Source: a virus (Duplodnaviria > Caudoviricetes). From it: DNA of 64,000 nt. How positions within the stretch are numbered: position 1 is the stretch's first letter; each line of letters begins with the position of its first letter. The notes beneath the pieces were generated by a model. It ran no database searches, was not told where the DNA came from, and worked only from the letters and a program-made list of their open reading frames with translations. The stretch is from positions 1 to 64,000 of the IMG/VR virus record IMGVR_UViG_3300020577_008743; one strand, written 5' to 3'. Shown here in pieces: positions 28,562-51,659 of the stretch. A program made the position numbers and the translations under genes.

Positions 28562-28653
28562 GGGAGAATAGCTCAATTGGTAGAGCAGCGGATTTATATC
28601 CCGTGCGTTAGATAAACGGTTGGTTGAGGGTTCGAGCCCCTCTTCTCCCACCA
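28562..28653 (+). tRNA. atypical tRNA, possibly Ile(UAU), with ~16 extra nt in the anticodon/variable region
   Basis: perfect acceptor, D and T arms and ACCA; irregular middle. Confidence 0.65.
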
Positions 28654-29493: not shown

Positions 29494-29579
29494 TGCGGGA
29501 TAGTGAGTAGCTGGTAGCTCTGAGGTCTCATAAGCCTCCGCCCTTGGCCCCGTCGGTTCGAGTCCGACTCCCGCAACCA
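29494..29579 (+). tRNA. tRNA-Met(CAU), atypical (extra nt before D stem, enlarged variable loop)
   Basis: TGCGGGA/TCCCGCA-ACCA; CAT. Confidence 0.8.
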
Positions 29580-33321: not shown

Positions 33322-33408
33322 CGGGGTGTAGGTCCGTAATCAGGTAGCGGTCTCGGCTTGGATCCGAGTGGGAAACCCTTGCAGGTTCAAATCCTGCCTC
33401 CCCGACCA
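33322..33408 (+). tRNA. tRNA-Pro(UGG), atypical (variable-arm hairpin)
   Basis: CGGGG start, TGG, ACCA. Confidence 0.8.
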
Positions 33409-37949: not shown

Positions 37950-38515
37950 GAAGGTAAAGTAACTGCTGTACTAAAAAAAAGCAAAGTGGGTGTAACATCC
38001 ACACGTTTCTTTCAGTCCTAACAACTTGTGTCGTTCGCCTTTGGGCTCACTGGCCCCCTAACGGGTGCCCCACAAGTTGCCAGCTCTGATGAGCTGGGCC
38101 TCAGGATCCAACGACTGGGTCCCCGGGGACTGGATGTCTTCTTGCACACCCGGTGCATTTTGGATGCTGAGCAAGATGGGCAACGCAATTGCCCGCCGGC
38201 TCAGTGAGATCTGCAGACATCGTCACCTGGTGTTGTTCTGGATCCCGAAGGTCGAGTTTACCTACATTAGCAACAGAAGTAGAAACAAAATGAATTCAAG
38301 AATTGAGGCTCTGGGAACAACATTGCGCCGCCTGAATGTCGGAACAAGGTCTTCCCCCCTGTGAGTTCGGCATTCCGCAATTTGGCGTCCTCCCGCCGAG
38401 TTGCATACCAATGCCCAGAGCCTCAACCTTACAAACGAAGAGCGTAAGCTCATGAATACGCCATCAACGAAGCTGACCACTTCGTTTCAAGCCCGGTCGT
38501 TCTTCGTTTGTTTTA
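37950..38515 (+). ncRNA. putative large structured RNA
   Basis: follows CGGTATAAG at 37936; 13-bp and 14-bp helices plus nested hairpins; no convincing ORF. Confidence 0.55.
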
Positions 38516-38523
38516 GCCACAAT

Positions 38524-38661
38524 TAGGACCGCAGAATTACGATTATCTATAATAGCTGACATGCTGCAGGTTCGAGTCCTGCCTGGCCCACCATCTATGG
38601 GTCCAGTGGCGAAATGGTATACGCATCAGCCCTAAACCAGTCGTATTCATAATTTGTCCTA
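38524..38661 (+). ncRNA. Y RNA-like 1 (YrlA type, tRNA-like domain)
   Basis: TAGGAC-CG..TTTGTCCTA stem, TTATC, T arm-acceptor-D arm order. Confidence 0.85.
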
Positions 38662-38670
38662 TTCTTCAAC

Positions 38671-38729
38671 GGGGGCGAAGTAGAAACTTATGAAGTTCGC
38701 AGCTTCTATTTTTCGATACGCTTCCACCA
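38671..38729 (+). ncRNA. 59-nt alanine-acceptor minihelix-like RNA
   Basis: GGGGGCG/CGCTTCC-A-CCA with G3.U70. Confidence 0.6.
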
Positions 38730-38734
38730 ACAAA

Positions 38735-39061
38735 ATGTCTCACACAACCGAGTTGTACTTCGAGTCACATATCACTATTGAGCCCGTGTTCGATGAAAGA
38801 CTGGAACAGTTCAAGGGAATATGTGCTTCGGAGGGTTTCAAGGCAGCAGAGCTGCTGATGAAAAAACGTTCGGGTGATACCGCTGAACGTTCGCAGTACG
38901 ATACCTTTTGCACTAGTAGAGATCTTATTTATGATAAAATCCAGACTAGAACATTAACCTTGGTCGAAAAGTTGCAGTCTTCCGGGTTTGACGTCTGGAG
39001 ATATAAGATTGAGAATACCTTGTTGGATGTTAGACTTAAATTAGAGTCTAAAATCCAGTAG
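38735..39061 (+). CDS. hypothetical protein inside the Y RNA cluster
   Basis: YFESHITI..WRYKIE. Confidence 0.65.
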   Translation: MSHTTELYFESHITIEPVFDERLEQFKGICASEGFKAAELLMKKRSGDTAERSQYDTFCTSRDLIYDKIQTRTLTLVEKLQSSGFDVWRYKIENTLLDVRLKLESKIQ

Positions 39062-39162
39062 GGCAAAAGATTCGATTGTTGTTTATATTACTAAATATAT
39101 TGAGTCTGTAAAAGCTGTTTGCAGTAGAATCAAGAAACATTCGTAGTACTAGAAGCATCCTC

Positions 39163-39224
39163 AGGGCCGCAGGAAGATCGGTTATCCCCTACACTGATGA
39201 CTCCGATTTCCGTATTTTCGCCCT
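39163..39224 (+). ncRNA. Y RNA-like 2 (minimal)
   Basis: AGGGC-CG..TTCGCCCT, GGAAGATCGG/CCGATTTCC, TTATC. Confidence 0.75.
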
Positions 39225-39234
39225 TCCCCCAATT

Positions 39235-39295
39235 AGAGCCGATTTGAGCTGGGTTATCCTTCTAAGATACCTCCCCATCTCAGTTCCCTTGCTCT
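39235..39295 (+). ncRNA. Y RNA-like 3 (minimal)
   Basis: AGAGC-CG..TTGCTCT, TGAG.TGGG/CCCA.CTCA, TTATC. Confidence 0.75.
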
Positions 39296-39324
39296 CCCTC
39301 TTGTAGTTGTGGTACAATCAACTT

Positions 39325-39453
39325 TTGAGCCGCTGTTAAATTCCGTTATCTTCCTTAGAAATAGGAAGTTGCGGGTTCGAATCCCGTCGCCAGCTTATAT
39401 CTGGCGTAGTTTAATTGGTAAAACTAAAACCGGAACTACACTAATTCGCTCAA
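39325..39453 (+). ncRNA. Y RNA-like 4 (tRNA-like domain)
   Basis: TTGAGC-CG..TTCGCTCAA, TTATC, GGTTCGAATCC, CGCCAG/CTGGCG, TAGTTTAATTGGTAAAAC; TGTGGTACAAT just upstream. Confidence 0.85.
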
Positions 39454-39460
39454 CCCCATT

Positions 39461-39530
39461 TAGGGCCGTCAGGTTATGTCGGTTATCTCACTTTTAGCGA
39501 AAACCCCGATTAACCATAAATTTTGCCCTA
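39461..39530 (+). ncRNA. Y RNA-like 5 (minimal)
   Basis: TAGGGC-CG..TTTGCCCTA, GGTTA..TCGG/CCGA.TAACC, TTATC. Confidence 0.75.
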
Positions 39531-39549
39531 CTGATTTAAATTTCAATTT

Positions 39550-39609
39550 GGAGCCGCTTAAAACTGGGTTATCAATTGGTGATTACTCCCCAGTCTAACT
39601 TTTCGCTCC
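39550..39609 (+). ncRNA. Y RNA-like 6 (minimal)
   Basis: GGAGC-CG..TTCGCTCC, ACTGGG/CCCAGT, TTATC. Confidence 0.75.
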
Positions 39610-39663
39610 TCCCGTTTAAACAAAGATTGCTGGGTTCAAACCTCTTTCTTTTAGCTGTTCAAA

Positions 39664-41609
39664 ATGACCTCTCACAGAAAAATTACCCCGTCTGAACGAA
39701 ATATTCTCCACCTCATAAATCGTAGCATAGCGGATTCAGAAGGCTGGTGTAATGTAAGTTCTGCCGTGTTTCCCCTTGTCAAAGACTTTGACTCTGAACT
39801 AGTTGAAATAAACGGCAACAAAATTCGGTTGACATCGGTAGGTAAGATACTTGCAGATTGGACTTGATTATGACCGACTCAGAACTAATACAAAATGCGG
39901 CTAAAGCCATCGGACTCATTGCAACCCCGATATTTACGGAAAATTTCGAGGGCCAGGAGTGGTGGGCGTATGAAGAAGGCAAGCCTACACAAACGCTAAG
40001 GCCGTGGAATCCTCTTGTGGATGATGGGGATGCCCTACGGTTGCTCGTAGAACTTGGAGACTATGTCCAGGAGGGGAGCTGGCCTTATATGTGGGGAGAG
40101 GCCCAAGAACAGGCTAAAGAAAACGATGGGCAAATAGACTGGTGTAAGGTTGTTCGTAGAACCATAGTAAAAGCTGCCGCCAATAAATGGTTAAGGATGG
40201 ATAGATCAAATGAAAAAGCAACCTCTAAATCCGCAGATTGAAAAACTTCTCGAGTTGTTAGACAAGGCCACGGAAGAACAACGAGGCAGCGAGAGGGCCC
40301 TGTACCTGTTGCTGAAACTCAATGTCGCTGTTCTTCCTGAACTGGATTACAGTTTTCACAAGGCTTTCAGACAGTATGATGTAACTGAGTCCGGTGAAAT
40401 GGATATGGCAATCTGGCATCTTTTAGGGGTTTCAAAGACGTTCTGGGAGGTGTTCGGGAAAATTACCGGAACAGATGATGAGGAGCCCGGCGAAGATGGC
40501 TAGAATAGAACTTATCTTCCCCGAGGAAGGATACCGTGAAGTAATCGGTGAAAGAGCACTCACTTTGGAAGAGGCTTTTGAAGCAGGAGTATTTTGGGCG
40601 ACCAGGCAGTTTCAAAGTAAATTCGGCATGTACTACCGCAAAGATGAGTGGGGAGAAAGAGACTACGTAGATGTAAAGTCCATTTTCCCCGATCATGTCA
40701 GGGACAAGATATGACCTGTAGGTTTTGCAACAAACCTTCCGTCAGTTACTACGATATATCTTTGACTGGTATTGGCAATTTCATTGAATACTGCAAGAAT
40801 CACCAGGAAGAGGCTCGTCAAAAGCGCGATGAGCATGATAGATATTGGGAAGAAATCCGAAAGGAAGTTATGAGGGAAAATGGCTAAAGTAACCTGGACA
40901 ATAGAGGATCACATATGTAGTTCTTGCGGGGGTCGAATAGTAAGATCAGCCAAGGGAACTGGTCCCACCCCTGGAGGAAATCCCGTATACAAGTGTTCTT
41001 TATGTGGTAAAGTTACAACAGAAATGGGAGGTCATTCCCTGTGTTGGTGCGGATATTCACAGAAATCCAATAACAACTCCCTTCCATATAAATGCGTTCC
41101 GTATTCGATATTAGAGAAATACCCTGACGGCTTAAGTTACTTTAAGTTTTGTGGATGTGATCCTAGGCGGGGAGGGGAAGTGGGAGTAATGTTAGAGGAG
41201 GATTGGAATGAACTTAGAAAAAAAGACATTGCCGTACAAGTCATACCACCAACAGCTGATTGAGGCTAACACCAAAACAGAGGCTCTTCGAGAACTAATC
41301 TCAACATTGGGTGAATTGTTGGTAAAAGAACAGGAAGCCCGTATTTTATACGAAGATGCTGTATGGAAAATGGTCAACGATGGTTGGTTAGTCCACGGTC
41401 CGGAAGGCATGAGTGAAGCTCAACAAGCTGTCTATGATGTTTGTAAAAATCATCCGGAGCTAAAAACTCGAATAAAACAAAAGCAAGAAGAACAGAGAAA
41501 TTACGAAGAAGCTACGAACAGAAATGTTCGGCTAGAATCCACTCCGGGAACATACGTACCAAATCCCAAACCCCTACCAGCCTGGCGTCGTTTGTTTCGC
41601 TGGCTGTAA
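39664..41609 (+). other. run of small hypothetical genes (39664-39867, 39858-40241, 40210-40503, ~40496-40714, ~40711-40887, 40880-41263, 41208-41609)
   Basis: overlapping + strand ORFs. Confidence 0.55.
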
Positions 41610-41615
41610 CCAAAT

Positions 41616-41743
41616 TTGAGCCGTTAGAATTTGATTATCCAATCGCAGGACGTGGTCAAAGGTTCGAATCCTTTCTCCCCCGCCATCAATGGGGGAGTAG
41701 CTCAGAGGTAGAGCACGTAAACTCGAATTCTGTTTTTGCTCAA
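41616..41743 (+). ncRNA. Y RNA-like 7 (tRNA-like domain)
   Basis: TTGAGC-CG..TTTGCTCAA, TTATC, AAAGGTTCGAATCCTTT, CTCCCCC/GGGGGAG, TAGCTCAGAGGTAGAGC. Confidence 0.88.
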
Positions 41744-41750
41744 TTCCAAT

Positions 41751-41881
41751 TTGGACCGAAGTTATTCAGTTATCGCTCCCAATGCGCCAGATCGGTTAAG
41801 TCCAGCACCCGTTGATTCATGGGTCGTAGTGTATAGAAGCACGGCGCATATTTTCAATTGATTAACGTTCACTTTGTCCAA
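41751..41881 (+). ncRNA. Y RNA-like 8 (degenerate tRNA-like domain)
   Basis: TTGGAC-CGAA..CTTTGTCCAA, TTATC, TGCGCC/GGCGCA enclosing T-, acceptor- and D-like hairpins. Confidence 0.8.
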
Positions 41882-41921: not shown

Positions 41922-43598
41922 ATGTCTGCAAAGAATCTTGTGAATCACCTCGTTCCGGGCCGCTATGCTTCCATTCCTGCGAAGCGTACTCCCGCCGCCC
42001 CGAAGGTGACCAAATCCACCAACCCGAACGCTGGCCTGCCGCCAGTGTCCACTTCTGCGTATCAGAAAACCGCCGCCGGCCAAGTTCAAAACTCGTCCGG
42101 AGCCTATGTTGGCAAATTGGATGTGTGGGCTCATCTGAATCGGTTTCTCATTCTCGGCACTTCCGGCTCGTCCTACTACGCCTCAGAGCGCAAGATGACC
42201 GTTGACATGGCCAAGGCCGTGGAAGCTGCAGTGAAATACAACGGCATTTCCACCGTCGATCTGATCGTGGAAATCAGCCAAGCCGGTGCCGCTCCAAAGA
42301 ATGATCCGGCCTTGCTGGCTCTGGCCATCTGCGTCGCCAAGGGGGATGATTCCACCAAGGCCTACGCAATGAACCAGCTGCCGAAGGTAGCCAGAATTTC
42401 GACTCACCTGTTCGATTTTCTGACCTACGTTCAGGCCATGAGAGGCTGGGGAAGAACCCTGAAAGAAGGTGTTGCCAACTGGTATACTTCCAAGGATCTG
42501 AACCCCTTAGCCATGCAGATGACGAAGTATCGTCAAAGAAATGGCTGGACTCACCGCGACGTTCTGAGACTGGCTCACCCGAAGCCCACCTCCGAGTCCA
42601 TGAACAATCTGTTCAAGTGGGCCATCAAAGGTCCAGAAGCACTGGAAAGAGGTGCGGAAATCCCTGAACAAGTCATCGGCTTCGAGAAGGCAAAGACCGC
42701 AGGTTCCGGTACTCTGGTCAAACTGATTCAGGATTACCGCCTGACCTGGGAGATGATTCCGACTGAGATGCTGAATGATGCCAACGTGTTTCACGCTCTA
42801 GTCATGAGCATGAATCTCGAGGCCATGATTCGCAATCTGCCGCGCATCACCAATCTCAACTTGTTGCTTACTCGGGAAGTCAGGGACCGTATTCTGAGTC
42901 TTCTGAGAAACGCAGAGGAGATCAAGGCCAAGCGGTACCATCCCCTCAAGGCTCTGGTGGCTAGAAAGACCTACGCCAGTGGCCGAGGTCTGAAGGGTAG
43001 CATGACCTGGGTACCCAACGCCGAGGTTGCCAGGGCCCTGGAAGACACGTTCTATCTGGGGTTCGATGCAGTGGAACCCACAGGCAAAAGACTTCTGTTG
43101 GGTATCGACGTCTCCGGCTCCATGACCATGGGCCAAGTAGGGGGCATGCCCCTTGCTCCGTACGAAGCTGTTGCCGCAATGGCAATGGTTACGGCACGTT
43201 GCGAACCTCTGGCAGAAATCCTCGGCTTTTCGTACAACCTGCAAGACCTTGGTATCAAGAACACCGATACTCTGGCCCAGGTTCTGAAGAAAGTGCAATT
43301 GGCTCGATTTGGAAGTACGAATCCCGGAGCACTAATTCAGTACGCAGCCAAGAAAGGCAATGTGGAAGGCCTGGTCGTCTACACCGACAACGAAGTGAAC
43401 CAAGGTTCCAGCGTTGCGGCAGAGATGAAGAAATATCGCACCAAGGCTTCTGTGGCCAGAGCAACGATGACTGTAGTCGGAATGACGGTCAACAATTTCA
43501 CCCTAGCCGACCCCAAAGATCCAGACATGCTCGACATTGTTGGATTCGATACCGCTGCTCCAGCAGTGATGTCCGAGTTCATCAAGGGCACTTTCTGA
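41922..43598 (+). CDS. rsr: Ro60/Rsr TROVE-vWA RNA-binding protein
   Basis: RFLILG, KYRQRNGWTHRDVLRLAHP, AMIRNL, IDVSGSM, YTDNE, MLDIVGFD. Confidence 0.95.
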   Translation: MSAKNLVNHLVPGRYASIPAKRTPAAPKVTKSTNPNAGLPPVSTSAYQKTAAGQVQNSSGAYVGKLDVWAHLNRFLILGTSGSSYYASERKMTVDMAKAVEAAVKYNGISTVDLIVEISQAGAAPKNDPALLALAICVAKGDDSTKAYAMNQLPKVARISTHLFDFLTYVQAMRGWGRTLKEGVANWYTSKDLNPLAMQMTKYRQRNGWTHRDVLRLAHPKPTSESMNNLFKWAIKGPEALERGAEIPEQVIGFEKAKTAGSGTLVKLIQDYRLTWEMIPTEMLNDANVFHALVMSMNLEAMIRNLPRITNLNLLLTREVRDRILSLLRNAEEIKAKRYHPLKALVARKTYASGRGLKGSMTWVPNAEVARALEDTFYLGFDAVEPTGKRLLLGIDVSGSMTMGQVGGMPLAPYEAVAAMAMVTARCEPLAEILGFSYNLQDLGIKNTDTLAQVLKKVQLARFGSTNPGALIQYAAKKGNVEGLVVYTDNEVNQGSSVAAEMKKYRTKASVARATMTVVGMTVNNFTLADPKDPDMLDIVGFDTAAPAVMSEFIKGTF

Positions 43599-43881
43599 TT
43601 TACAGTTTCACGTACTAGCCCAAAAACCGACTGGGTTGGTATTTTAGGGTGCAGAACATCGTACCCTTTTTTAGCCTTTACTTGGTATAAGGGAAATAAC
43701 GAGACGAATTATTTAAGGAGCAGTTATGGACGTGACGGGAAAGGATTCAAAATACTTACGTGGTGTTAAAGACACCCTATCGTGGGCACTTACCGGGAGC
43801 GGAACTAAGTTGCATCGCAGCGTCAGGGAAATTTCCGAGCTTATGCATAAGGCCGACGATGCAGAGAAGGCTGCCCTCACA

Positions 43882-45309: not shown

Positions 45310-45918
45310 ATGAGTCAGCCACCAGTTTACCGCAACACTCTCCCCGATCATCTGTTTCAGATGTACCCGCTGTTGAAACGTACCCTCACGCTGATTCAGC
45401 TGGGACACGCCGGTCAGTTGTACAACGGGCATCCTTACTGGCATCATCCGGTGCGGGTTGCCATGAGGCTGGAATCACTGTGGGTACAGAACGAGGGGTC
45501 TTTGCTGTATTCCGCTCTTCTTCACGACTTGATCGAAGATACTTCCCTGGAAGTCGATGATTTGAAGGAGTTCGGATATTCCGACACCGTGGTAAAAACG
45601 GTCAAAGCCCTGACTCATGATGCATTCGATACCCGGACGTACATGGAGTATGTCCAGGACATCACCATTCATCCGGAGTCTTTCGTTCGCCACGGAGCCA
45701 GCCTTGTCAAGTTGGCAGACCTGACGGAGAACGTGAACGGAGCCAGGTTTCTGCCCATGGAGAAAAGGGGAAGAATGGAACGTTACGGAAAGGCAATATC
45801 GGTCATTCAAGACTCTCTCATTCTTCACAGCCCCTGGGTAGCCCACTCCGTCCACGTCGGTGAGTTGGACGCAGCCAAGCTTGAGATGTGGTTCGGCCAT
45901 CCCCCAGCGTTTCTGTAA
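45310..45918 (+). CDS. HD-domain hydrolase ((p)ppGpp hydrolase/Mesh1-like)
   Basis: HAGQ..PYWHHP, ALLHDLIEDT, VKLAD..N. Confidence 0.8.
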   Translation: MSQPPVYRNTLPDHLFQMYPLLKRTLTLIQLGHAGQLYNGHPYWHHPVRVAMRLESLWVQNEGSLLYSALLHDLIEDTSLEVDDLKEFGYSDTVVKTVKALTHDAFDTRTYMEYVQDITIHPESFVRHGASLVKLADLTENVNGARFLPMEKRGRMERYGKAISVIQDSLILHSPWVAHSVHVGELDAAKLEMWFGHPPAFL

Positions 45919-45959: not shown

Positions 45960-46036
45960 CTGCCCGTAGCTCAGTTGGATAGAGCACCGAGCTTCTACCT
46001 CGGGTGTCGGGGGTTCGAATCCCTCCGGGCAGGCCA
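45960..46036 (+). tRNA. tRNA-Arg(UCU)
   Basis: cloverleaf, TCT, GCCA. Confidence 0.92.
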
Positions 46037-47217: not shown

Positions 47218-47658
47218 ATGAAAATGAAGTATAGTCATTTTTACACCGCAGTTTTTGCAGCAGGAATACTGGGGGGTTTAGCCACTTGGTGGGTCACTTT
47301 GCCGCCTTTGTTTCAGGCTAGCGTTTACTGGATAGTGTTTTCTGGGTTTACGGTGCTGGTTGACCTATACATTGCGTACCGTCAGGTCAGCCTACAATCC
47401 AGTCAGGACTTTGATGCAAAAAGGATCAGTTTCTCCTTACTGCATGACATGATATTGGTTCAGTCAGGAAAAGACCGGGCCTTTGCTTGTTTGGTCGCCG
47501 TACTACTCCTGTCCCTATCCCTGTTTTTGACTCCACCAGCAACTGAGTATTTATATGGAGCGGTCTGCTATTTCAGCTGGTTCATGTTTACCCAGTCTAT
47601 ACTGGACTTGATATATTACTGGCGCAACTACAAACCCAGAGTGGACAAATTCATATGA
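47218..47658 (+). CDS. membrane protein
   Basis: 4 TM segments. Confidence 0.55.
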   Translation: MKMKYSHFYTAVFAAGILGGLATWWVTLPPLFQASVYWIVFSGFTVLVDLYIAYRQVSLQSSQDFDAKRISFSLLHDMILVQSGKDRAFACLVAVLLLSLSLFLTPPATEYLYGAVCYFSWFMFTQSILDLIYYWRNYKPRVDKFI

Positions 47659-48185
47659 ACATCTTCTTTCTAGCCGACGAACCAAGACGCTGTGCCATTA
47701 ACCACTGCGATAAACACGTCGTCAAAATGATTCTGGAATACGCCCAACTTTTGAGCACAGCAGTGGAACTCACAACCGGTACCGGTTTAGGGTATAAGAA
47801 AACGCATGAGAATCATCCGTGCTCTGTCTGGGTTCGTGAAAGTGCTGCCAATTTTTGGTGGTTATTCAACATGGCAACGTACCTGACCCGGGAATACAAC
47901 TTTCGTTACAACAAAGATCACAAATCTGCCGAAATTATTCAGAGGGCGGGGGCTTACACGCAGTTCTTTCCCGGCTATTCAGAGTACAAAATCCAAGACT
48001 TTAGCACGGCTCCACAATGCATGCCGGAAAGGTATCGGTCCAATTCTCTGTTTTACTCCTACCAGGTGTATTACATCGCTGAAAAACTTCGGTTTGCAAA
48101 ATGGAAAATGGATGGGCCCCCTCCCTGGACATTAGATTTGAAATGGATGCGTCCAGAAACAAAAGAACTATTAGGAATAGATTAA
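47655..48185 (+). CDS. pyrimidine-dimer DNA glycosylase (DenV-like) family protein
   Basis: MNIFFL, DKHVVKMILEYAQLLST, THENHPC, PQCMP. Confidence 0.75.
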   Translation: MNIFFLADEPRRCAINHCDKHVVKMILEYAQLLSTAVELTTGTGLGYKKTHENHPCSVWVRESAANFWWLFNMATYLTREYNFRYNKDHKSAEIIQRAGAYTQFFPGYSEYKIQDFSTAPQCMPERYRSNSLFYSYQVYYIAEKLRFAKWKMDGPPPWTLDLKWMRPETKELLGID

Positions 48186-48186
48186 C

Positions 48187-48696
48187 ATGAATGAAACAAT
48201 CATAGGAGACAGTACAGGAGATTTTCACATCCTTAAGGGGGGGTATATGACCCCTGCAAGCTCCGGGGATTACTCTCGTCTGACAGGAATGCAGCACCCC
48301 TGGAAAGACAGACATAGAGACATCTCTTGGCCCCTGCCCCCCGTTCAGTCCAAAGAACTTCCCCCGATGCAGCCTGAAACTCCGAAGGCTAAAAAAGAGG
48401 TCCCAGCTTCGGAATTTCTAGAGGAGGCTTCTAGAGTAATGAAGGCTAGAGCTGCTCAACGGGATGCCCAGAACGGCGAACGTAGCATGGCCAAAACCGT
48501 GGAAATGTTCAACGCCTATAAGGGAATAAGTCTGTCGGAATCCGACGGCTGGGTGTTCATGGTCCTACTCAAATTGGTGAGAGGATCTCAGGGCCAGTTT
48601 CACATGGACGATTACGTTGATGGGTCGGCGTACTTCAGCCTGCTGGGGGAAGCCGAATCAAAAGGGAGGGAACCCCGTGAAGATTCAAGTACTTAG
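48187..48696 (+). CDS. conserved phage protein (DUF6378-like)
   Basis: ERSM, MVLLKLVR, DDYVDG.AY. Confidence 0.6.
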   Translation: MNETIIGDSTGDFHILKGGYMTPASSGDYSRLTGMQHPWKDRHRDISWPLPPVQSKELPPMQPETPKAKKEVPASEFLEEASRVMKARAAQRDAQNGERSMAKTVEMFNAYKGISLSESDGWVFMVLLKLVRGSQGQFHMDDYVDGSAYFSLLGEAESKGREPREDSST

Positions 48697-49408
48697 TGAT
48701 CTACACTACGAATTCAACGAAGGTTACTATTTAAAAAAAGAGCACTTCGTTGGAGACGTAATAGTCCTGGCTGGGGACATCTGTAGCCTACCGGATCACA
48801 GATTTGCAGATCTTCCGGATGTACCTGTGATTCATGTGCTGGGTAATCATGAACACTATGGCAAGAACTTTGTCGATACCAAGCGTAAGACGGAAGATGC
48901 TTGGCTGCGGCTAGGCAAAGAGAACGTCAGCGTGCTGAACAATCAGGTTCGAGTGGAAGACGGAGTCAGATTCCTCTGCACCACTCTTTGGACTGATTTT
49001 CTCACCGAAGACAAAATGTATCAGATGGCTGAGTGTAAAAGGGGAATGAACGATTTCTACCAAATTCGTAACTTCACCACCGCCACCTGGATCTACGAAA
49101 ATGACGTGGCCGTGACGTGGCTGAAGCAGGAACTGGCCAAAGAGCACGAAGGAAAGACGGTGGTAGTTACTCACCATGCCCCTTCTTTCAAAAGCAATGG
49201 GGAATGGTACAGAAACAGTAGTATCCGTGCCGGGTTTTGTACTGACATGGAGTATCTAATGAAGGAGGAGAAGATTGACCTCTGGATTCACGGTCACACT
49301 CACGAACCGGCCGATTACATGGTTGGATCAACAAGAGTGGTGTGTAATCCTCTGGGGTATCGAGCTGAGAATCCCAGATTTCAAGAATCGCTTGTAGTAG
49401 AAATTTGA
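48677..49408 (+). CDS. calcineurin-like metallophosphoesterase
   Basis: SDLH, LAGDI, GNHE, THHAP, HGHTH. Confidence 0.88.
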   Translation: MKIQVLSDLHYEFNEGYYLKKEHFVGDVIVLAGDICSLPDHRFADLPDVPVIHVLGNHEHYGKNFVDTKRKTEDAWLRLGKENVSVLNNQVRVEDGVRFLCTTLWTDFLTEDKMYQMAECKRGMNDFYQIRNFTTATWIYENDVAVTWLKQELAKEHEGKTVVVTHHAPSFKSNGEWYRNSSIRAGFCTDMEYLMKEEKIDLWIHGHTHEPADYMVGSTRVVCNPLGYRAENPRFQESLVVEI

Positions 49409-49955
49409 AAGGAAACATCTTGAACAGACTCACTATTTCGCTTGATAAAGAACTCCTTACTCTTGAAGGAGAACATGGAATTTGCTCTCTGCCTGTTGAT
49501 CATCTCAGCACCGCTTTAAGAGCCGAATTGGTGAAGCTGACGGGCTGGGATATGAGCGAATTTTTCTATCCAGGCTCTCTTTTGTTGTGTAAGGTGACTA
49601 GAGTCACGGTGCATCCCCTTTCTTCGGTATACCTGGCCTACCTTTCTGATTTCCACATCAAGGAATTGGTATAAGTAAAGTACAGGGGGGTTATTCTCTG
49701 AAACCGAAAAGGACTTGATATGGACCTCAATCGTCGAAGGAAGGGAGCGGGCTTGTTCCGTCGGAACAGGACACCGTCCATGCTGAAGGGCGGAGACAGG
49801 CCTACCGTTCACATCCCCAAGGCTGGGAAACGCCCCCGGGAATCCCGCAAACCGCTCACCACAGTTCAAACCTGATTCATCCTCGTCTTCCCTACGATTC
49901 CTAACGGAATCTTTCGGCCCGATTCACTGGGCCTTTTTTCGCTTCAGGAATTCTC

Positions 49956-50429
49956 ATGGCATATGTACTGAAAATCAATCCCAGAAACAAGATATTGCTT
50001 TCCCTTCTGGCGATGGACCGGAAACTTCTTATTCACGTAGGGCATCCGTACCTCTGCGGAAATCTCTGCGACCTAGCCCTATGGGGAGTTAAACTTCTTC
50101 TCTGCCTTGCCGCTACTTTAATCTGGTACGGATTTCTGTGGGGAACCATGGCCTGTGCTGCGTATGTAACATACGGAATTTGGAACGATATATTTATCCC
50201 CTCAACAGATCACTCCACCTGGGGTGTGGCTAAGGTGATGTTTGTATTCTTCGGAACCTGCATTGGTTGGATGGTATTCATTGTGTGGATACTGCCCATT
50301 CTTTTACGAACAGGTGTACGTTGGATAAAACTTCTATGGGGGAAACTTACTGAGTCGATGTTCTGTATCACTATTGACTTTGATGATCGTAAGTTGGACG
50401 TTCCCAAACGTCGAGGAGAATATGAATAA
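49956..50429 (+). CDS. membrane protein
   Basis: TM segments. Confidence 0.55.
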   Translation: MAYVLKINPRNKILLSLLAMDRKLLIHVGHPYLCGNLCDLALWGVKLLLCLAATLIWYGFLWGTMACAAYVTYGIWNDIFIPSTDHSTWGVAKVMFVFFGTCIGWMVFIVWILPILLRTGVRWIKLLWGKLTESMFCITIDFDDRKLDVPKRRGEYE

Positions 50430-51659
50430 ATGAGCCAACACGAAGTACTAATATACAAGGCAAAGCTGCTGCCTCATCCCAACGCGGATATGATAGAGCT
50501 TTGTCAGATCGGAGACTACCTCTCTATTGTCAAGAAGGGTGATTTCAAGGAAGATCAGCCGGTAGCCTATATTCCTGAACAATCAATTGTTCCAGAACCT
50601 CTTTTGGAAGAAATGGGGTTGAAGAACAAGCTCTCTGGTGCAGCCCGAAACCGGGTCAAAGCCATCAAGTTGCGTGGTACTCTATCCCAGGGCTTGGTGT
50701 ACGTCAAACCGGGAGGTTACGCCGAAGAGGACGTAGGTCGAAACGTAGCTGAAGAGCTGGGGATCATCAAGTGGTCTCCGACTCTACCGGTCCACCTACG
50801 AGGAAAAGCCAAAGGCATGGCTTACGATATTACTGTCAACTACGATATAGAGAATATCAAAAAATGGAACCGACACATTGAAGAAGGGGACTTGGTAGTA
50901 ATCACCGAGAAAATTCATGGAACAAACGTCCAGATTGGTTATGCTCCACGTTGTGGGAGCAGTGGCGGAGGGGTGGGCATTAGTTATGACGGACAGTCTT
51001 CCTCCGGAGGGCCCGATGGAGGTGGGTCAGGCGTTGACGTGGTCTCATCCGAGACCAGGAATATTCTGTTTGAGAACTCATTCTGGGTTAGTTCAAAAGG
51101 TTTGGGTGGTAGGGGAATCATTCTCGATATGGAAGATTCCTCCAACGTTTACGCCAATATTGCTCGTTCCATCGAATATAACCTTCTTGAGAAAATCCGC
51201 AATTTTTACACCGGAAAAAACCTCAGACACATCGAGTATCTCTCAGGCCTTCAATGCCCCCCGATAGTCCTGATAGGAGAAATATTCGGGCCAGGTATTC
51301 AAACAGGTTTTCACTACGGTCAAACCAAGCCTGAATTCAGGCTATTCGACATTGCTGTAGGCCCTCGTAATAACAGGATGTACCTGAGCTGGGACGATTA
51401 CATGCAAGCAGCCTTTATCATGGGCATTCCGACAGTCCCTACTTTGTATATCGGTCCGTTCTCAAAAGAGATTCTGGCACAGTACACCTCTGGCAAGGAA
51501 AAGGTTACCAACCATTCCCACCACATGAGGGAAGGTTGCGTAGTTCGGTTGATCAATGAGAAGTCTTCAGGAAACCTGGGCAGGGTTATTCTGAAGAGCA
51601 TATCGGAAGAGTATCTAACTAGAAAAGGTACCGAGGAAGAATTGACGGAGTACCAGTGA
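50430..51659 (+). CDS. ATP-dependent RNA ligase (DRB0094/Rnl2-like)
   Basis: HPNAD N-terminal domain, EKIHGTN, GEIFG, FRLFDI, REGCVV, ILKSIS. Confidence 0.88.
   Translation: MSQHEVLIYKAKLLPHPNADMIELCQIGDYLSIVKKGDFKEDQPVAYIPEQSIVPEPLLEEMGLKNKLSGAARNRVKAIKLRGTLSQGLVYVKPGGYAEEDVGRNVAEELGIIKWSPTLPVHLRGKAKGMAYDITVNYDIENIKKWNRHIEEGDLVVITEKIHGTNVQIGYAPRCGSSGGGVGISYDGQSSSGGPDGGGSGVDVVSSETRNILFENSFWVSSKGLGGRGIILDMEDSSNVYANIARSIEYNLLEKIRNFYTGKNLRHIEYLSGLQCPPIVLIGEIFGPGIQTGFHYGQTKPEFRLFDIAVGPRNNRMYLSWDDYMQAAFIMGIPTVPTLYIGPFSKEILAQYTSGKEKVTNHSHHMREGCVVRLINEKSSGNLGRVILKSISEEYLTRKGTEEELTEYQ

What the first reader, a model, noticed from the sequence alone, without database searches (positions are those of the whole stretch)
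39163..39609. Minimal ~60-70 nt Y RNAs with the animal Y/sbRNA UUAUC loop motif
Seen: copies 2, 3, 5 and 6 lack any tRNA-like domain and consist only of stem-bulge-stem plus a short loop starting TTATC (e.g. GAGCCGATTTGAGCTGGGTTATC). Known from recall: human Y1/Y4 read GGUCCGA..G(A/G)GUUAUC at the same position, and UUAUC is the conserved loop motif of nematode stem-bulge RNAs. Inference: a bacterial/phage class linking YrlA to metazoan Y RNAs, with UUAUC as an ancient protein-contact motif. They could alternatively act as sponges or gatekeepers of Ro60.
Basis: partly seen in the sequence, partly recalled or inferred. Interest (0 to 1): 0.8.

Follow-up and report, generated by a model that had tools for sequence, protein, structure and literature searches.

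The report
Phage mini Y RNAs, animal-like motif
Four ~60-base hairpin RNA genes beside a phage's Ro60 gene are real miniature Y RNAs. They belong to a large, apparently undescribed bacterial and phage family whose stem, bulge and UUAUC motif match animal Y RNAs almost letter for letter, so that motif probably predates its known role in animal DNA replication.

Summary
The window is part of a 97-kb phage genome with a Ro60 gene (41922-43598). Eight Y-RNA modules lie upstream on the same strand. Four are 62-70-nt stem-bulge-stem hairpins with no tRNA-like domain (39162-39225, 39234-39296, 39461-39530, 39549-39610). All eight carry TTATC 16-20 nt after GRRCCG.

The motif is not local. In 160 Ro60 loci from viral and bacterial collections, TTATC is the top 5-mer after GRRCCG on the Ro60 strand, peaking at offset 17. 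That is the offset in the Rfam nematode sbRNA and vertebrate Y RNA consensus sequences. Folding without using the motif recovers UUAYC. Both stems covary: 91.5% of cells are paired against 63.7% in shuffles.

Relatives reach Rfam's gathering score for nematode sbRNA (RF01656, up to 44.4 bits). The window's own copies hit neither eukaryotic model. A model built only from genome contigs (MAG) sequences finds three of them.

Ro60 binding and any protein contact at UUAUC are inferred. No RNA data exist.

I found no paper describing UUAUC in prokaryotic Y RNAs. Hairpin Y RNAs are known (YrlB, Yrn2, phiLo Yrl2), so this is a new variant of a known kind. This scan has noted the same family before on other genomes.

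The parts
39162..39225 (+). Minimal Y RNA, copy 2 (64 nt). Lower stem AGGGC/GCCCU with bulged C, 9-bp upper stem with one bulged A, UUAUC at 39182-39186. UUAUC can pair with GAUGA across a 9-nt loop.
   Evidence: CM R1 45.7 bits. Bacterial-only CM R2 32.9 bits, E 6e-5. Fold.
39234..39296 (+). Minimal Y RNA, copy 3 (63 nt). GAGCCGA / UUGCUC lower helix, UUAUC at 39254-39258. UAUC/GAUA closes a 7-nt loop CUUCUAA that has the anticodon-loop signature.
   Evidence: R1 51.5 bits. R2 36.8 bits, E 8e-6. Orthologs in L001 9453-9516, L004 4173-4235 and L012 4262-4324. Loop analysis.
39461..39530 (+). Minimal Y RNA, copy 5 (70 nt). Upper stem with a bulge, UUAUC at 39483-39487, A-rich 3' half of the loop.
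   Evidence: R1 30.7 bits. R2 23.8 bits, E 5e-3.
39549..39610 (+). Minimal Y RNA, copy 6 (62 nt). UUAUC at 39569-39573. The loop AAUUGGUGAUUACUC looks like a tRNA D-loop and is identical in distant phages.
   Evidence: R1 45.2 bits. Not found by R2. Loop is 100% identical in L003, L005 and L029 while the stems differ.
38524..38661 (+). tRNA-like Y RNA, copy 1 (YrlA type), with the same GGACCG...GAUUAUC module.
   Evidence: RF02553 20.7 bits. Pattern.
39325..39453 (+). tRNA-like Y RNA, copy 4 (YrlA type), lying between minimal copies 3 and 5. Module GAGCCG...CCGUUAUC.
   Evidence: RF02553 33.5 bits, E 4e-5, for the T, acceptor and D part.
41616..41743 (+). tRNA-like Y RNA, copy 7. Module GAGCCG...GAUUAUC.
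   Evidence: Strict parse.
41751..41881 (+). tRNA-like Y RNA, copy 8. Module GGACCGAAG...CAGUUAUC. It ends 40 nt before the Ro60 start codon.
   Evidence: R2 24.9 bits.
41922..43598 (+). Ro60/Rsr ortholog (558 aa), the presumed protein partner.
   Evidence: Pfam TROVE 3e-39 and vWA_Ro60 1e-41. PDB matches: D. radiodurans Rsr 331 bits, Xenopus Ro60 309, human RO60 304.
43646..43667 (+). Terminator-like hairpin with a T run just after Ro60. Possibly the end of the transcription unit.
   Evidence: This is a consensus match only, and such sites were no more frequent than in shuffles.

Best explanation
The four elements are genes for miniature Y RNAs, the small RNA partners of the phage's own Ro60 protein. 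They sit in a tight same-strand array with four tRNA-like Y RNAs, and no promoter or terminator signal stands out between them. They are therefore probably cut out of one long precursor that also carries the Ro60 message (inferred). Each RNA has a constant 'handle' made of a terminal stem with a bulged C, a short internal loop, a 9-10 bp upper stem ending (U)(G/C)GG, and then UUAUC. The bulged lower helix is the known Ro60 docking site (established for Xenopus and D. radiodurans; inferred here). The upper stem acts as a rigid spacer of fixed length. It places UUAUC and the copy-specific loop at a set distance from Ro60. The loops are conserved copy by copy between distant phages, which marks them as the effector ends. 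They would recruit or block different partners, for example host PNPase as shown for phage phiLo, or tRNA-handling enzymes. UUAUC is a sequence-specific element of the handle. I think it most likely touches Ro60 or a Ro60-bound partner, or sets the geometry at the top of the stem. The handle is homologous to that of nematode stem-bulge RNAs and vertebrate Y RNAs. Shown: the sequence features, their conservation and covariation, and the link to Ro60 genes. Inferred: transcription, processing, Ro60 binding and the role of UUAUC.
For: Ro60 gene on the same strand, 2.3-2.8 kb downstream of the minimal copies. Eight modules have the same layout. The syntenic array in a related contig (Ro60 68% identical) holds seven modules, six with GUUAUC and one with GUUUAUC. 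After GRRCCG on the Ro60 strand, TTATC is the top 5-mer: 118 of 849 anchors against 2 of 641 on the other strand, with the offset peaking at 17. The pattern occurs 178 times against 33 in the viral loci (54 of 82 loci fetched to that point) and 235 against 16 in bacterial loci (70 of 80). A motif-blind fold of 233 elements gives TTATC 124 and TTACC 25. The covariance model gave 101 and 95 hits at E<=0.01, all on the Ro60 strand. Covariation: 91.5% of cells paired against 63.7% in shuffles and 33-49% when partners are slid, 15 of 16 pairs show compensatory changes, and G.U pairs are frequent, which fits only the + strand RNA. A model built from genome contigs (MAG) sequences alone finds copies 3, 2 and 5 and copy 8, and nothing else, in 64 kb. 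Relatives hit RF01656 at or above gathering: 38.1 bits and eleven hits of 38.3-44.4 bits. One relative matches the RF00019 consensus 5' strand almost letter for letter. The copy 6 loop is identical in phages whose Ro60 is 47% identical, while the stems changed. Precedents: phage Y RNA-like hairpins bind phage Ro60 and host PNPase (PMC12135203), and bacterial hairpin Y RNAs are known (PMC4201824).
Against: There is no expression evidence for these RNAs in any organism; no RNA run holds this DNA. The window's four copies do not hit RF01656 or RF00019 even at E<=10. Their internal loops differ from the family consensus (CGC.., CGU.. against CGAAG). Copy 6 is missed by the bacterial-only model. 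Published work maps Ro60 binding to the lower stem only, so a Ro60 contact at UUAUC has no experimental precedent. In sbRNAs the motif mattered for DNA replication activity, not for Ro binding (PMC4450293). Promoter and terminator scans were no better than shuffles, so the transcription unit is unknown.
Confidence: 0.75

Rival explanations
1. The animal-like handle is not ancient. It reflects horizontal transfer of a Ro60 plus Y RNA cassette between eukaryotes and bacteria or phages, in either direction, followed by purifying selection. The RNAs are still Ro60 partners; only the history differs.
For: The window's Ro60 is about as similar to Xenopus and human Ro60 (309 and 304 bits) as to D. 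radiodurans Rsr (331 bits). Ro60 is patchily distributed in bacteria, about 5% of genomes (PMC4201824). About 35 of 40 non-variable handle positions are identical to the nematode consensus, by my own reading of the consensus lines, which is very high for divergence since the last common ancestor. The loci are often phage-like and mobile.
Against: The handle occurs in many phyla (Chloroflexota, Verrucomicrobiota, Armatimonadota, Myxococcota, Actinomycetota phages, a Vibrio phage) with graded variants UUACC, UUAUU and UUAUA. That suggests long residence in prokaryotes. No phylogeny was built here, so neither direction nor date can be given.
Confidence: 0.35
2. UUAUC is conserved for an RNA-intrinsic reason rather than as a protein contact. 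It could be a folding or processing signal, such as a nuclease cut site, or the 5' strand of an apical helix.
For: In 41 of 124 distinct minimal loops UUAUC can pair with GAUAA, GAUGA or GAUAC, against 18.5 expected. The arrays need processing out of long precursors, since no promoters were found between copies. In short sbRNA constructs the motif was dispensable (PMC4450293).
Against: Most loops have no partner for UUAUC, and some are only 8-9 nt long. Even where it can pair, the motif stays fixed in sequence instead of covarying, which points to base-specific recognition. The same motif is kept in organisms with very different RNases.
Confidence: 0.3
3. The minimal copies are decaying deletion remnants of tRNA-like Y RNAs and have no function of their own.
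For: They lie between tRNA-like copies. At the positions of W copies 5 and 6, the related contig L001 has tRNA-like copies instead.
Against: Minimal forms make up 77 of 166 strictly parsed elements, across viral and bacterial loci. Orthologous minimal copies keep their loops and show compensatory stem changes between phages whose Ro60 is 47-68% identical. Both stems are under clear structural selection.
Confidence: 0.04
4. TTATC and its surroundings are DNA-level sites such as promoters, operators or repeat elements.
For: It is a repeated short motif in an intergenic array. GATAA-type sites bind proteins in some systems.
Against: All 196 model hits lie on the Ro60 strand. The motif sits at a fixed register relative to covarying RNA stems. 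G.U pairs are common, for example 72 of 83 at one pair, and would be A.C mismatches on the other strand. TTATC shows no genome-wide enrichment. Promoter-like sites are no more frequent than in shuffles. The same motif at the same place occurs in eukaryotic Y RNAs, which are transcribed by a different machinery.
Confidence: 0.02

Closest known systems
Nematode stem-bulge RNAs (sbRNAs; Rfam RF01656 ceN72-3_ceN74-2; Boria 2010, Kowalski 2015 PMC4450293)
   Same: Lower stem with a single bulged C, a 9-bp upper stem with G-C clamps and a UG-CA core, UUA(U/C)C at the 5' end of the loop 17 nt after GGNCCG, and the 3' strand CCCA....C-ACCAACUU-G. Family members reach the Rfam gathering score (38.1-44.4 bits).
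   Different: These are prokaryotic or phage genes in polycistronic arrays beside Ro60, not Pol III genes. Their loops are much shorter (about 13-25 nt against about 70 model positions). The window's own four copies do not hit the model. The known sbRNA function is eukaryotic DNA replication, and most sbRNAs were not found with ROP-1.
Vertebrate Y RNAs (Rfam RF00019)
   Same: The Ro60-binding helix GGUCCGA/UUGACC with a bulged C, the upper stem ...GUGGG, and UUAU(C) at the same offset. One relative (L059 4776-4841) matches the 5' strand of the consensus almost letter for letter.
   Different: Best score is 23.8 bits, below the gathering score of 38, and the window gives no hit. There is no long pyrimidine-rich loop. 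The RNA is about 60 nt against 84-112 nt. The 3' U tract is not a conserved feature here.
Bacterial and phage hairpin Y RNAs without a tRNA domain: S. Typhimurium and M. smegmatis YrlB, D. radiodurans Yrn2 (Chen 2014, PMC4201824); Thermus phage phiLo Yrl1 and Yrl2 (PMC12135203)
   Same: Small hairpin Y RNAs encoded next to Ro60 alongside a tRNA-like Y RNA, with a stem-bulge-stem layout. The phiLo RNAs bind phage Ro60 and host PNPase in vitro.
   Different: The published descriptions name only GNCGAA or CGAA as the conserved motif. They do not mention the upper-stem UGGG or UUAUC. I had no reference sequences for a direct comparison. The phiLo Ro60 is very distant from this one (28 bits).
YrlA (Rfam RF02553), the tRNA-mimicking bacterial and mycobacteriophage Y RNA
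   Same: Same loci, same strand and the same handle. In this family the tRNA-like copies also carry UUAYC right after the upper stem, including in Mycobacterium phage Dandelion.
   Different: The four minimal copies lack the T, acceptor-like and D arms that define YrlA. The RF02553 consensus itself shows no UUAUC.

Membership tests
Y RNA in the broad sense (Ro60-associated small RNA) | Encoded close to, and on the same strand as, a Ro60 ortholog (the prokaryotic criterion of Chen 2014: within 4 kb) | tested here: met
   Ro60 lies at 41922-43598. The minimal copies are 2.3-2.8 kb upstream on the same strand.
Y RNA in the broad sense (Ro60-associated small RNA) | 5' and 3' ends pair into a stem that holds the conserved bulged helix (GGUCCGA-like 5' strand with a bulged C) | tested here: met
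   GRRC-C-G(A) paired with (U)U-GYYC in all four copies. Covariation is shown.
Y RNA in the broad sense (Ro60-associated small RNA) | Physically bound by Ro60 and dependent on it for stability | not testable with these tools
   Needs EMSA, RIP or a knockout. No RNA run holds this DNA.
Nematode sbRNA (Rfam RF01656) | Score at or above the Rfam gathering threshold (38 bits) | tested here: not met
   The window copies give no hit at E<=10. Relatives of the same family do pass: 38.1 bits and eleven hits of 38.3-44.4 bits.
Nematode sbRNA (Rfam RF01656) | Bulged-C lower stem, 9-bp upper stem and UUA(U/C)C at the 5' end of the loop (PMC4450293) | tested here: met
   The upper stems are 9-10 bp, with a bulge in copies 2 and 5.
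Vertebrate Y RNA (Rfam RF00019) | Score at or above the gathering threshold (38 bits) | tested here: not met
   No hit in the window. The best relative scores 23.8 bits.
YrlA (Rfam RF02553) | tRNA-like domain (T arm, acceptor-like hairpin, D arm) between the strands of the Ro-binding stem | tested here: not met
   The four minimal copies have no T-arm motif and no RF02553 or tRNA hit. Their loops are only 20-23 nt. Neighbouring copies 1 and 4 do have the domain.
YrlB, Yrn2 and Yrl2-type hairpin Y RNAs | [quoted passage not shown] | tested here: met
   The architecture is met. Sequence relatedness to the published RNAs was not tested because no reference sequences were on hand.

The most novel reading that the evidence does not exclude
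The Y RNA handle (bulged stem, UG-CA upper stem, UUAUC) is one inherited module shared by bacteria, phages, nematodes and vertebrates. Its original job would then lie in the Ro60 particle, not in eukaryotic DNA replication. In a subset of the miniature Y RNAs, including copy 3 here, UUAUC forms the stem of an anticodon-arm mimic. The loop is exactly 7 nt with the C-U-NNN-A-A signature, and the middle triplet varies between copies. Other copies carry a D-loop-like or T-arm-only apex. These would be Ro60-tethered pieces of tRNA that act as baits or decoys for anticodon nucleases or tRNA enzymes, in a phage that also carries 17 tRNAs and an RNA ligase.
Probability: 0.15. Interest if true: 0.85.

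Novelty: new variant of a known kind. Interest (0 to 1): 0.62.

Why it matters
[quoted passage not shown] The conserved upper stem and UUAUC of animal Y and sbRNAs have been explained by their role in starting chromosomal DNA replication. Here a widespread prokaryotic and phage family carries the same upper-stem core and UUAUC at the same distance from the Ro60 site. These organisms lack the eukaryotic replication machinery. This makes an old question testable in a simple system: what do these conserved Y RNA elements do within the Ro60 particle? A 60-nt RNA with a soluble phage or bacterial Ro60 is well suited to structural and binding studies. It also shows that phages carry sets of Y RNAs with different, individually conserved loops, which hints that one Ro60 is directed to several partners during infection.

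Tried and rejected
1. A DNA similarity search of the array against 50,697 phage records found no match. A single-protein locus search in IMG/VR also found none. An alignment-based search was needed.
2. Rfam at E<=10 on 38300-39800 gave no Y_RNA or sbRNA hit for the window copies.
3. RNAalifold on the MAFFT alignment recovered only the lower stem, because the 3' strand of the upper stem was misaligned by one column in part of the rows. This was solved with a hand-given structure and realignment to a covariance model.
4. Promoter and terminator scans were no better than shuffles.
5. Sequencing runs: no RNA holder is listed. Contigs from four river, wastewater and freshwater metagenome runs carry nearly the same array, with only two differences, both in tRNA-like copy 4. 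They therefore gave no population-level covariation.
6. Individual MFE folds have only modest z-scores of -1.3 to -2.7. Single-sequence folding alone would not have been convincing.
7. Obligatory UUAUC pairing inside the loop was rejected, because most loops lack a partner and some are too short.
8. The 123-aa ORF inside the array (38690-39061) has no Pfam or PHROG hit. The protein atlas gave only phage hypothetical-protein clusters.
9. Two reviews (PMC10870794, PMC6542706) were not held in the library. A search for the papers behind the human RO60 entries 9NEN, 9NEP and 9NF8 found nothing.
10. I did not check Ro60 residues that contact Y RNA, because I could not cite the contact list reliably.

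Full report
**What is in the window**

The window is the first 64 kb of a single 97,490-bp contig. It has 17 tRNA genes and phage-type gene content. Contigs from sludge, wastewater, river and freshwater metagenome runs hold nearly the same sequence.

At 41922-43598 (+) it encodes a full Ro60/Rsr ortholog, with Pfam TROVE at 3e-39 and vWA_Ro60 at 1e-41. This protein is almost as similar to Xenopus and human Ro60 (309 and 304 bits) as to D. radiodurans Rsr (331 bits). It is far from the Thermus phage phiLo Ro60 (28 bits).

Eight elements lie upstream on the same strand. Each begins GRRCCG and carries TTATC 16-20 nt later, at 38526, 39164, 39236, 39327, 39463, 39551, 41618 and 41753.

- Four have a tRNA-like insert. 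Copy 4 gives YrlA 33.5 bits (E 4e-5) and copy 1 gives 20.7 bits, both below gathering.
- Four are plain hairpins: 39162-39225, 39234-39296, 39461-39530 and 39549-39610.

Chance cannot explain it. TTATC is not enriched in the genome as a whole (103 copies), and all eight GRRCCG-TTATC pairs lie in this one array.

**Anatomy of the minimal copies**

Each minimal copy has these parts, in order:

- a terminal stem of six pairs (NNGRRC with GYYCNN);
- a bulged C;
- a G.U or G-C pair;
- a small internal loop;
- an upper stem of 9-10 pairs ending (U)(G/C)GG;
- UUAUC;
- 15-18 further loop bases.

Spacers between neighbouring copies are only 1-30 nt. Promoter-like and terminator-like sites are no more frequent than in shuffled sequence. 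The one terminator-like hairpin of note lies just after Ro60, at 43646-43667. I infer one long transcript that is processed, as reported for M. smegmatis YrlA and YrlB (PMC4201824).

**Is it conserved?**

*Closest relative.* This is a 14-kb metagenome contig, L001, with Ro60 68% identical. It has the same gene order and seven modules, six with GUUAUC and one with GUUUAUC. Two are minimal and match copies 2 and 3 by position.

*Wider sample.* An alignment-based search gave 80 viral loci and 80 genome-collection loci with Ro60 38-47% identical.

- The pattern GNNCCG-N-TTATC occurs 178 times on the Ro60 strand against 33 on the other in the viral loci, and 235 against 16 in the genome loci. It is present in 54 of the 82 loci fetched to that point (L001-L082) and 70 of 80 genome loci.
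- Using only GRRCCG as anchor, TTATC is the most enriched 5-mer downstream: 118 of 849 anchors against 2 of 641. The offset is 17 in 79 cases, 18 in 20 and 16 in 9.
- I then required only a two-stem fold at offset 17 and ignored the motif. The five bases after the upper stem were TTATC in 124 and TTACC in 25 of 233 elements, and most of the rest were the same motif shifted by one base. The consensus is therefore UUAYC.
- Known actinophages have it too. Mycobacterium phage Dandelion carries CGG-UUACC twice and CGG-UUAUC once upstream of Ro60. Gordonia phage Cashline carries UUACC twice. Vibrio phage BONAISHI has UUAUU and UUAUA.

**Structure support**

A covariance model built from 35 minimal elements found only the four minimal copies in the window. 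This is by construction, since they were in the seed.

Across 83 and 84 sources it gave 101 and 95 hits at E<=0.01, every one on the Ro60 strand. On the 83 distinct viral hits:

- 91.5% of cells form a standard pair, against 63.7% in shuffles and 33-49% when partners are slid by 1-3 columns;
- 15 of 16 pairs show changes on both sides;
- G.U pairs are common, 72 of 83 at the pair after the bulged C.

G.U pairs fit an RNA read from the + strand and argue against a DNA-level site.

As a non-circular test I built a second model from 50 genome contigs (MAG) sequences only. In the 64-kb window, on both strands, it found copy 3 (36.8 bits, E 8e-6), copy 2 (32.9 bits), copy 5 (23.8 bits) and the handle of tRNA-like copy 8, and nothing else. 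Copy 6 was missed.

**Comparison with animal Y RNAs**

- The window copies hit neither RF00019 nor any sbRNA family at E<=10.
- More typical family members do. L021 4651-4724 scores 38.1 bits against RF01656, whose gathering score is 38. Eleven elements in fourteen genome loci score 38.3-44.4 bits at the gathering threshold.
- The printed consensus of RF01656 is UCGGUCCGGaGucgaUGGGUUAUCa ... UUCCCAucgaCACCAACUUGACCG. The genome_contigs-only model reads GCGGGCCGAAGcgccUGGGUUAUC ... CCCCAggcgCaccaACUUGCCCGC.
- The commonest 3' internal loop in the prokaryotic set, ACCAACUU, is identical to the nematode consensus.
- RF00019 reads GGUCCgAagguaGUGGGUUAu. One phage element reads GGGCCGAAGGUAGUCGGUUAU, but the score is only 23.8 bits.

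Papers confirm the sbRNA layout: a lower stem with one bulged C, a 9-bp upper stem with a UG-CA core, and UUAUC at the 5' end of the loop. [quoted passage not shown]

The resemblance is thus a module of about 40 positions, not five letters. The window's copies are divergent members, with internal loops CGC or CGU rather than CGAAG and a 3' side of UUUUCG rather than ACUUG.

**What UUAUC might do**

It is not simply one strand of a helix.

- Only 41 of 124 distinct minimal loops allow pairing with a GAUAA-like partner (18.5 expected).
- Some loops are just 8-9 nt.
- The motif stays fixed rather than covarying.
- Its distance from the Ro60 site is fixed.

These points favour base-specific recognition by something positioned relative to Ro60. 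Ro60 is the only obvious partner shared by phages, bacteria and animals. I therefore favour a Ro60-proximal contact, or a role in setting the geometry of the effector loop. This is inference. Published mapping places Ro60 binding on the lower stem only.

**Copy-specific loops**

The loops are conserved copy by copy. The copy 6 loop (AAUUGGUGAUUACUC) is identical in L003, L005 and L029, whose Ro60 is 47% identical, while both stems differ. The copy 3 loop (CUUCUAAGAUAC) recurs in L001, L012 and L004. This argues that each minimal Y RNA has its own partner and rules out decay remnants.

In passing I saw a pattern in the loops closed by UUAUC. They are sharply peaked at 7 nt: 17 against 2.0 expected among minimal loops, and 26 against 8.9 over all 409 elements. 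Seven of 24 distinct 7-nt loops carry the full anticodon-loop signature Y-U-NNN-R-A, where 1.4% is expected. Their flanks are constant and the middle triplet varies (GAA, GAU, GUU, UCA, UCU, UUU, UGG). Copy 3 is one of them, with CUUCUAA. The copy 6 loop resembles a tRNA D-loop, and some relatives carry only a T arm.

Together with the RNA ligase and phosphoesterase genes downstream, this suggests Ro60-tethered tRNA parts. The numbers are small and the lineages are not independent, so I keep this as the speculative case.

**Novelty**

The following are already published:

- phage Ro60 and Y RNAs, and bacterial hairpin Y RNAs without a tRNA domain (PMC4201824);
- a phage hairpin Y RNA that binds phage Ro60 and host PNPase (PMC12135203).

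Those papers name only GNCGAA or CGAA as the conserved motif. My full-text searches found no paper linking UUAUC to bacterial or phage Y RNAs. One review states that bacterial Y RNAs are not homologous with vertebrate ones (PMC4726728).

Earlier agents of this scan noted the same family on other genomes. I re-derived their claim independently here. I class it as a new variant of a known kind.

**Caveats**

- There is no expression or binding data.
- Several 'bacterial' loci are MAG contigs packed with tRNA genes and may be phage DNA. Others lie on contigs of 1-9 Mb.

Noticed in passing
window 41616-41743 and 41751-41881 (+): Two further tRNA-like Y RNA genes with the same GRRCCG...UUAUC handle lie directly upstream of the Ro60 start. 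The array therefore has eight members.
   Followed up: partly
window 47655-51659 (+): Downstream of Ro60 lies a run of repair-type genes: pyrimidine dimer glycosylase (47655-48185), calcineurin-like phosphoesterase (48617-49408) and RNA ligase with an OB fold (50430-51659). An HD-domain protein lies at 45310-45918. Together with 17 tRNAs and Ro60, this looks like an RNA or tRNA damage-response module.
   Followed up: partly
window 39254-39275; L004 4175, L061, L044, L108: In a subset of minimal Y RNAs, UUAUC closes a 7-nt loop with the anticodon-loop signature C-U-NNN-A-A and a varying middle triplet. Window copy 3 has CUUCUAA. The window also encodes tRNA-Arg(UCU) at 45960.
   Followed up: partly
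window 39574-39588; L003 3580, L004 3664, L007 3433, L012 3617: The copy 6 loop AAUUGGUGA resembles a tRNA D-loop. It is identical or nearly so in phages with only 44-47% Ro60 identity.
   Followed up: partly
window 38590-38612, 41677-41697; L001 9590-9612, 9748-9770: The acceptor-like hairpins of the tRNA-like copies have loops that read ...CCACCAUC... or GCCAUCAAU. That is an encoded CCA followed by a short linker, as in a circularly permuted tRNA.
   Followed up: no
L019 4132-4255: A tRNA hit (47.3 bits) with a 64-nt insert at the anticodon region. The insert contains a GGGCCGAAG...GUUAUC handle, so the wiring is reversed relative to YrlA.
   Followed up: no
window 38690-39061 (+); L001 8782-9096: A 123-aa ORF of unknown function is embedded in the Y RNA array and conserved in the closest relative. 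It has no Pfam or PHROG hit. The atlas clusters it with phage hypothetical proteins.
   Followed up: partly
window 28562-28653, 29494-29579, 33325-33405: Three odd tRNA calls. One is a 92-nt tRNA called Ile(UAU). One is an 86-nt tRNA-Met that ARAGORN finds but Rfam does not find at gathering. One is an 81-nt Rfam tRNA hit at 29.3 bits that ARAGORN does not call.
   Followed up: no
L001 6222-6413: A group I intron hit (59.1 bits, above gathering) in the related phage contig, upstream of the DUF7873 gene.
   Followed up: no
L093, L096, L103, L114, L122 (genome contigs): Ro60 loci assigned to Verrucomicrobiota and other MAGs are packed with dozens of tRNA genes. They look like large phage or prophage DNA binned with bacterial genomes.
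   Followed up: no
window 39628-39646: Just after copy 6 the sequence GCUGGGUUCAAACCUC resembles a lone, imperfect T-loop. It may be a remnant of a lost tRNA-like domain.
   Followed up: no
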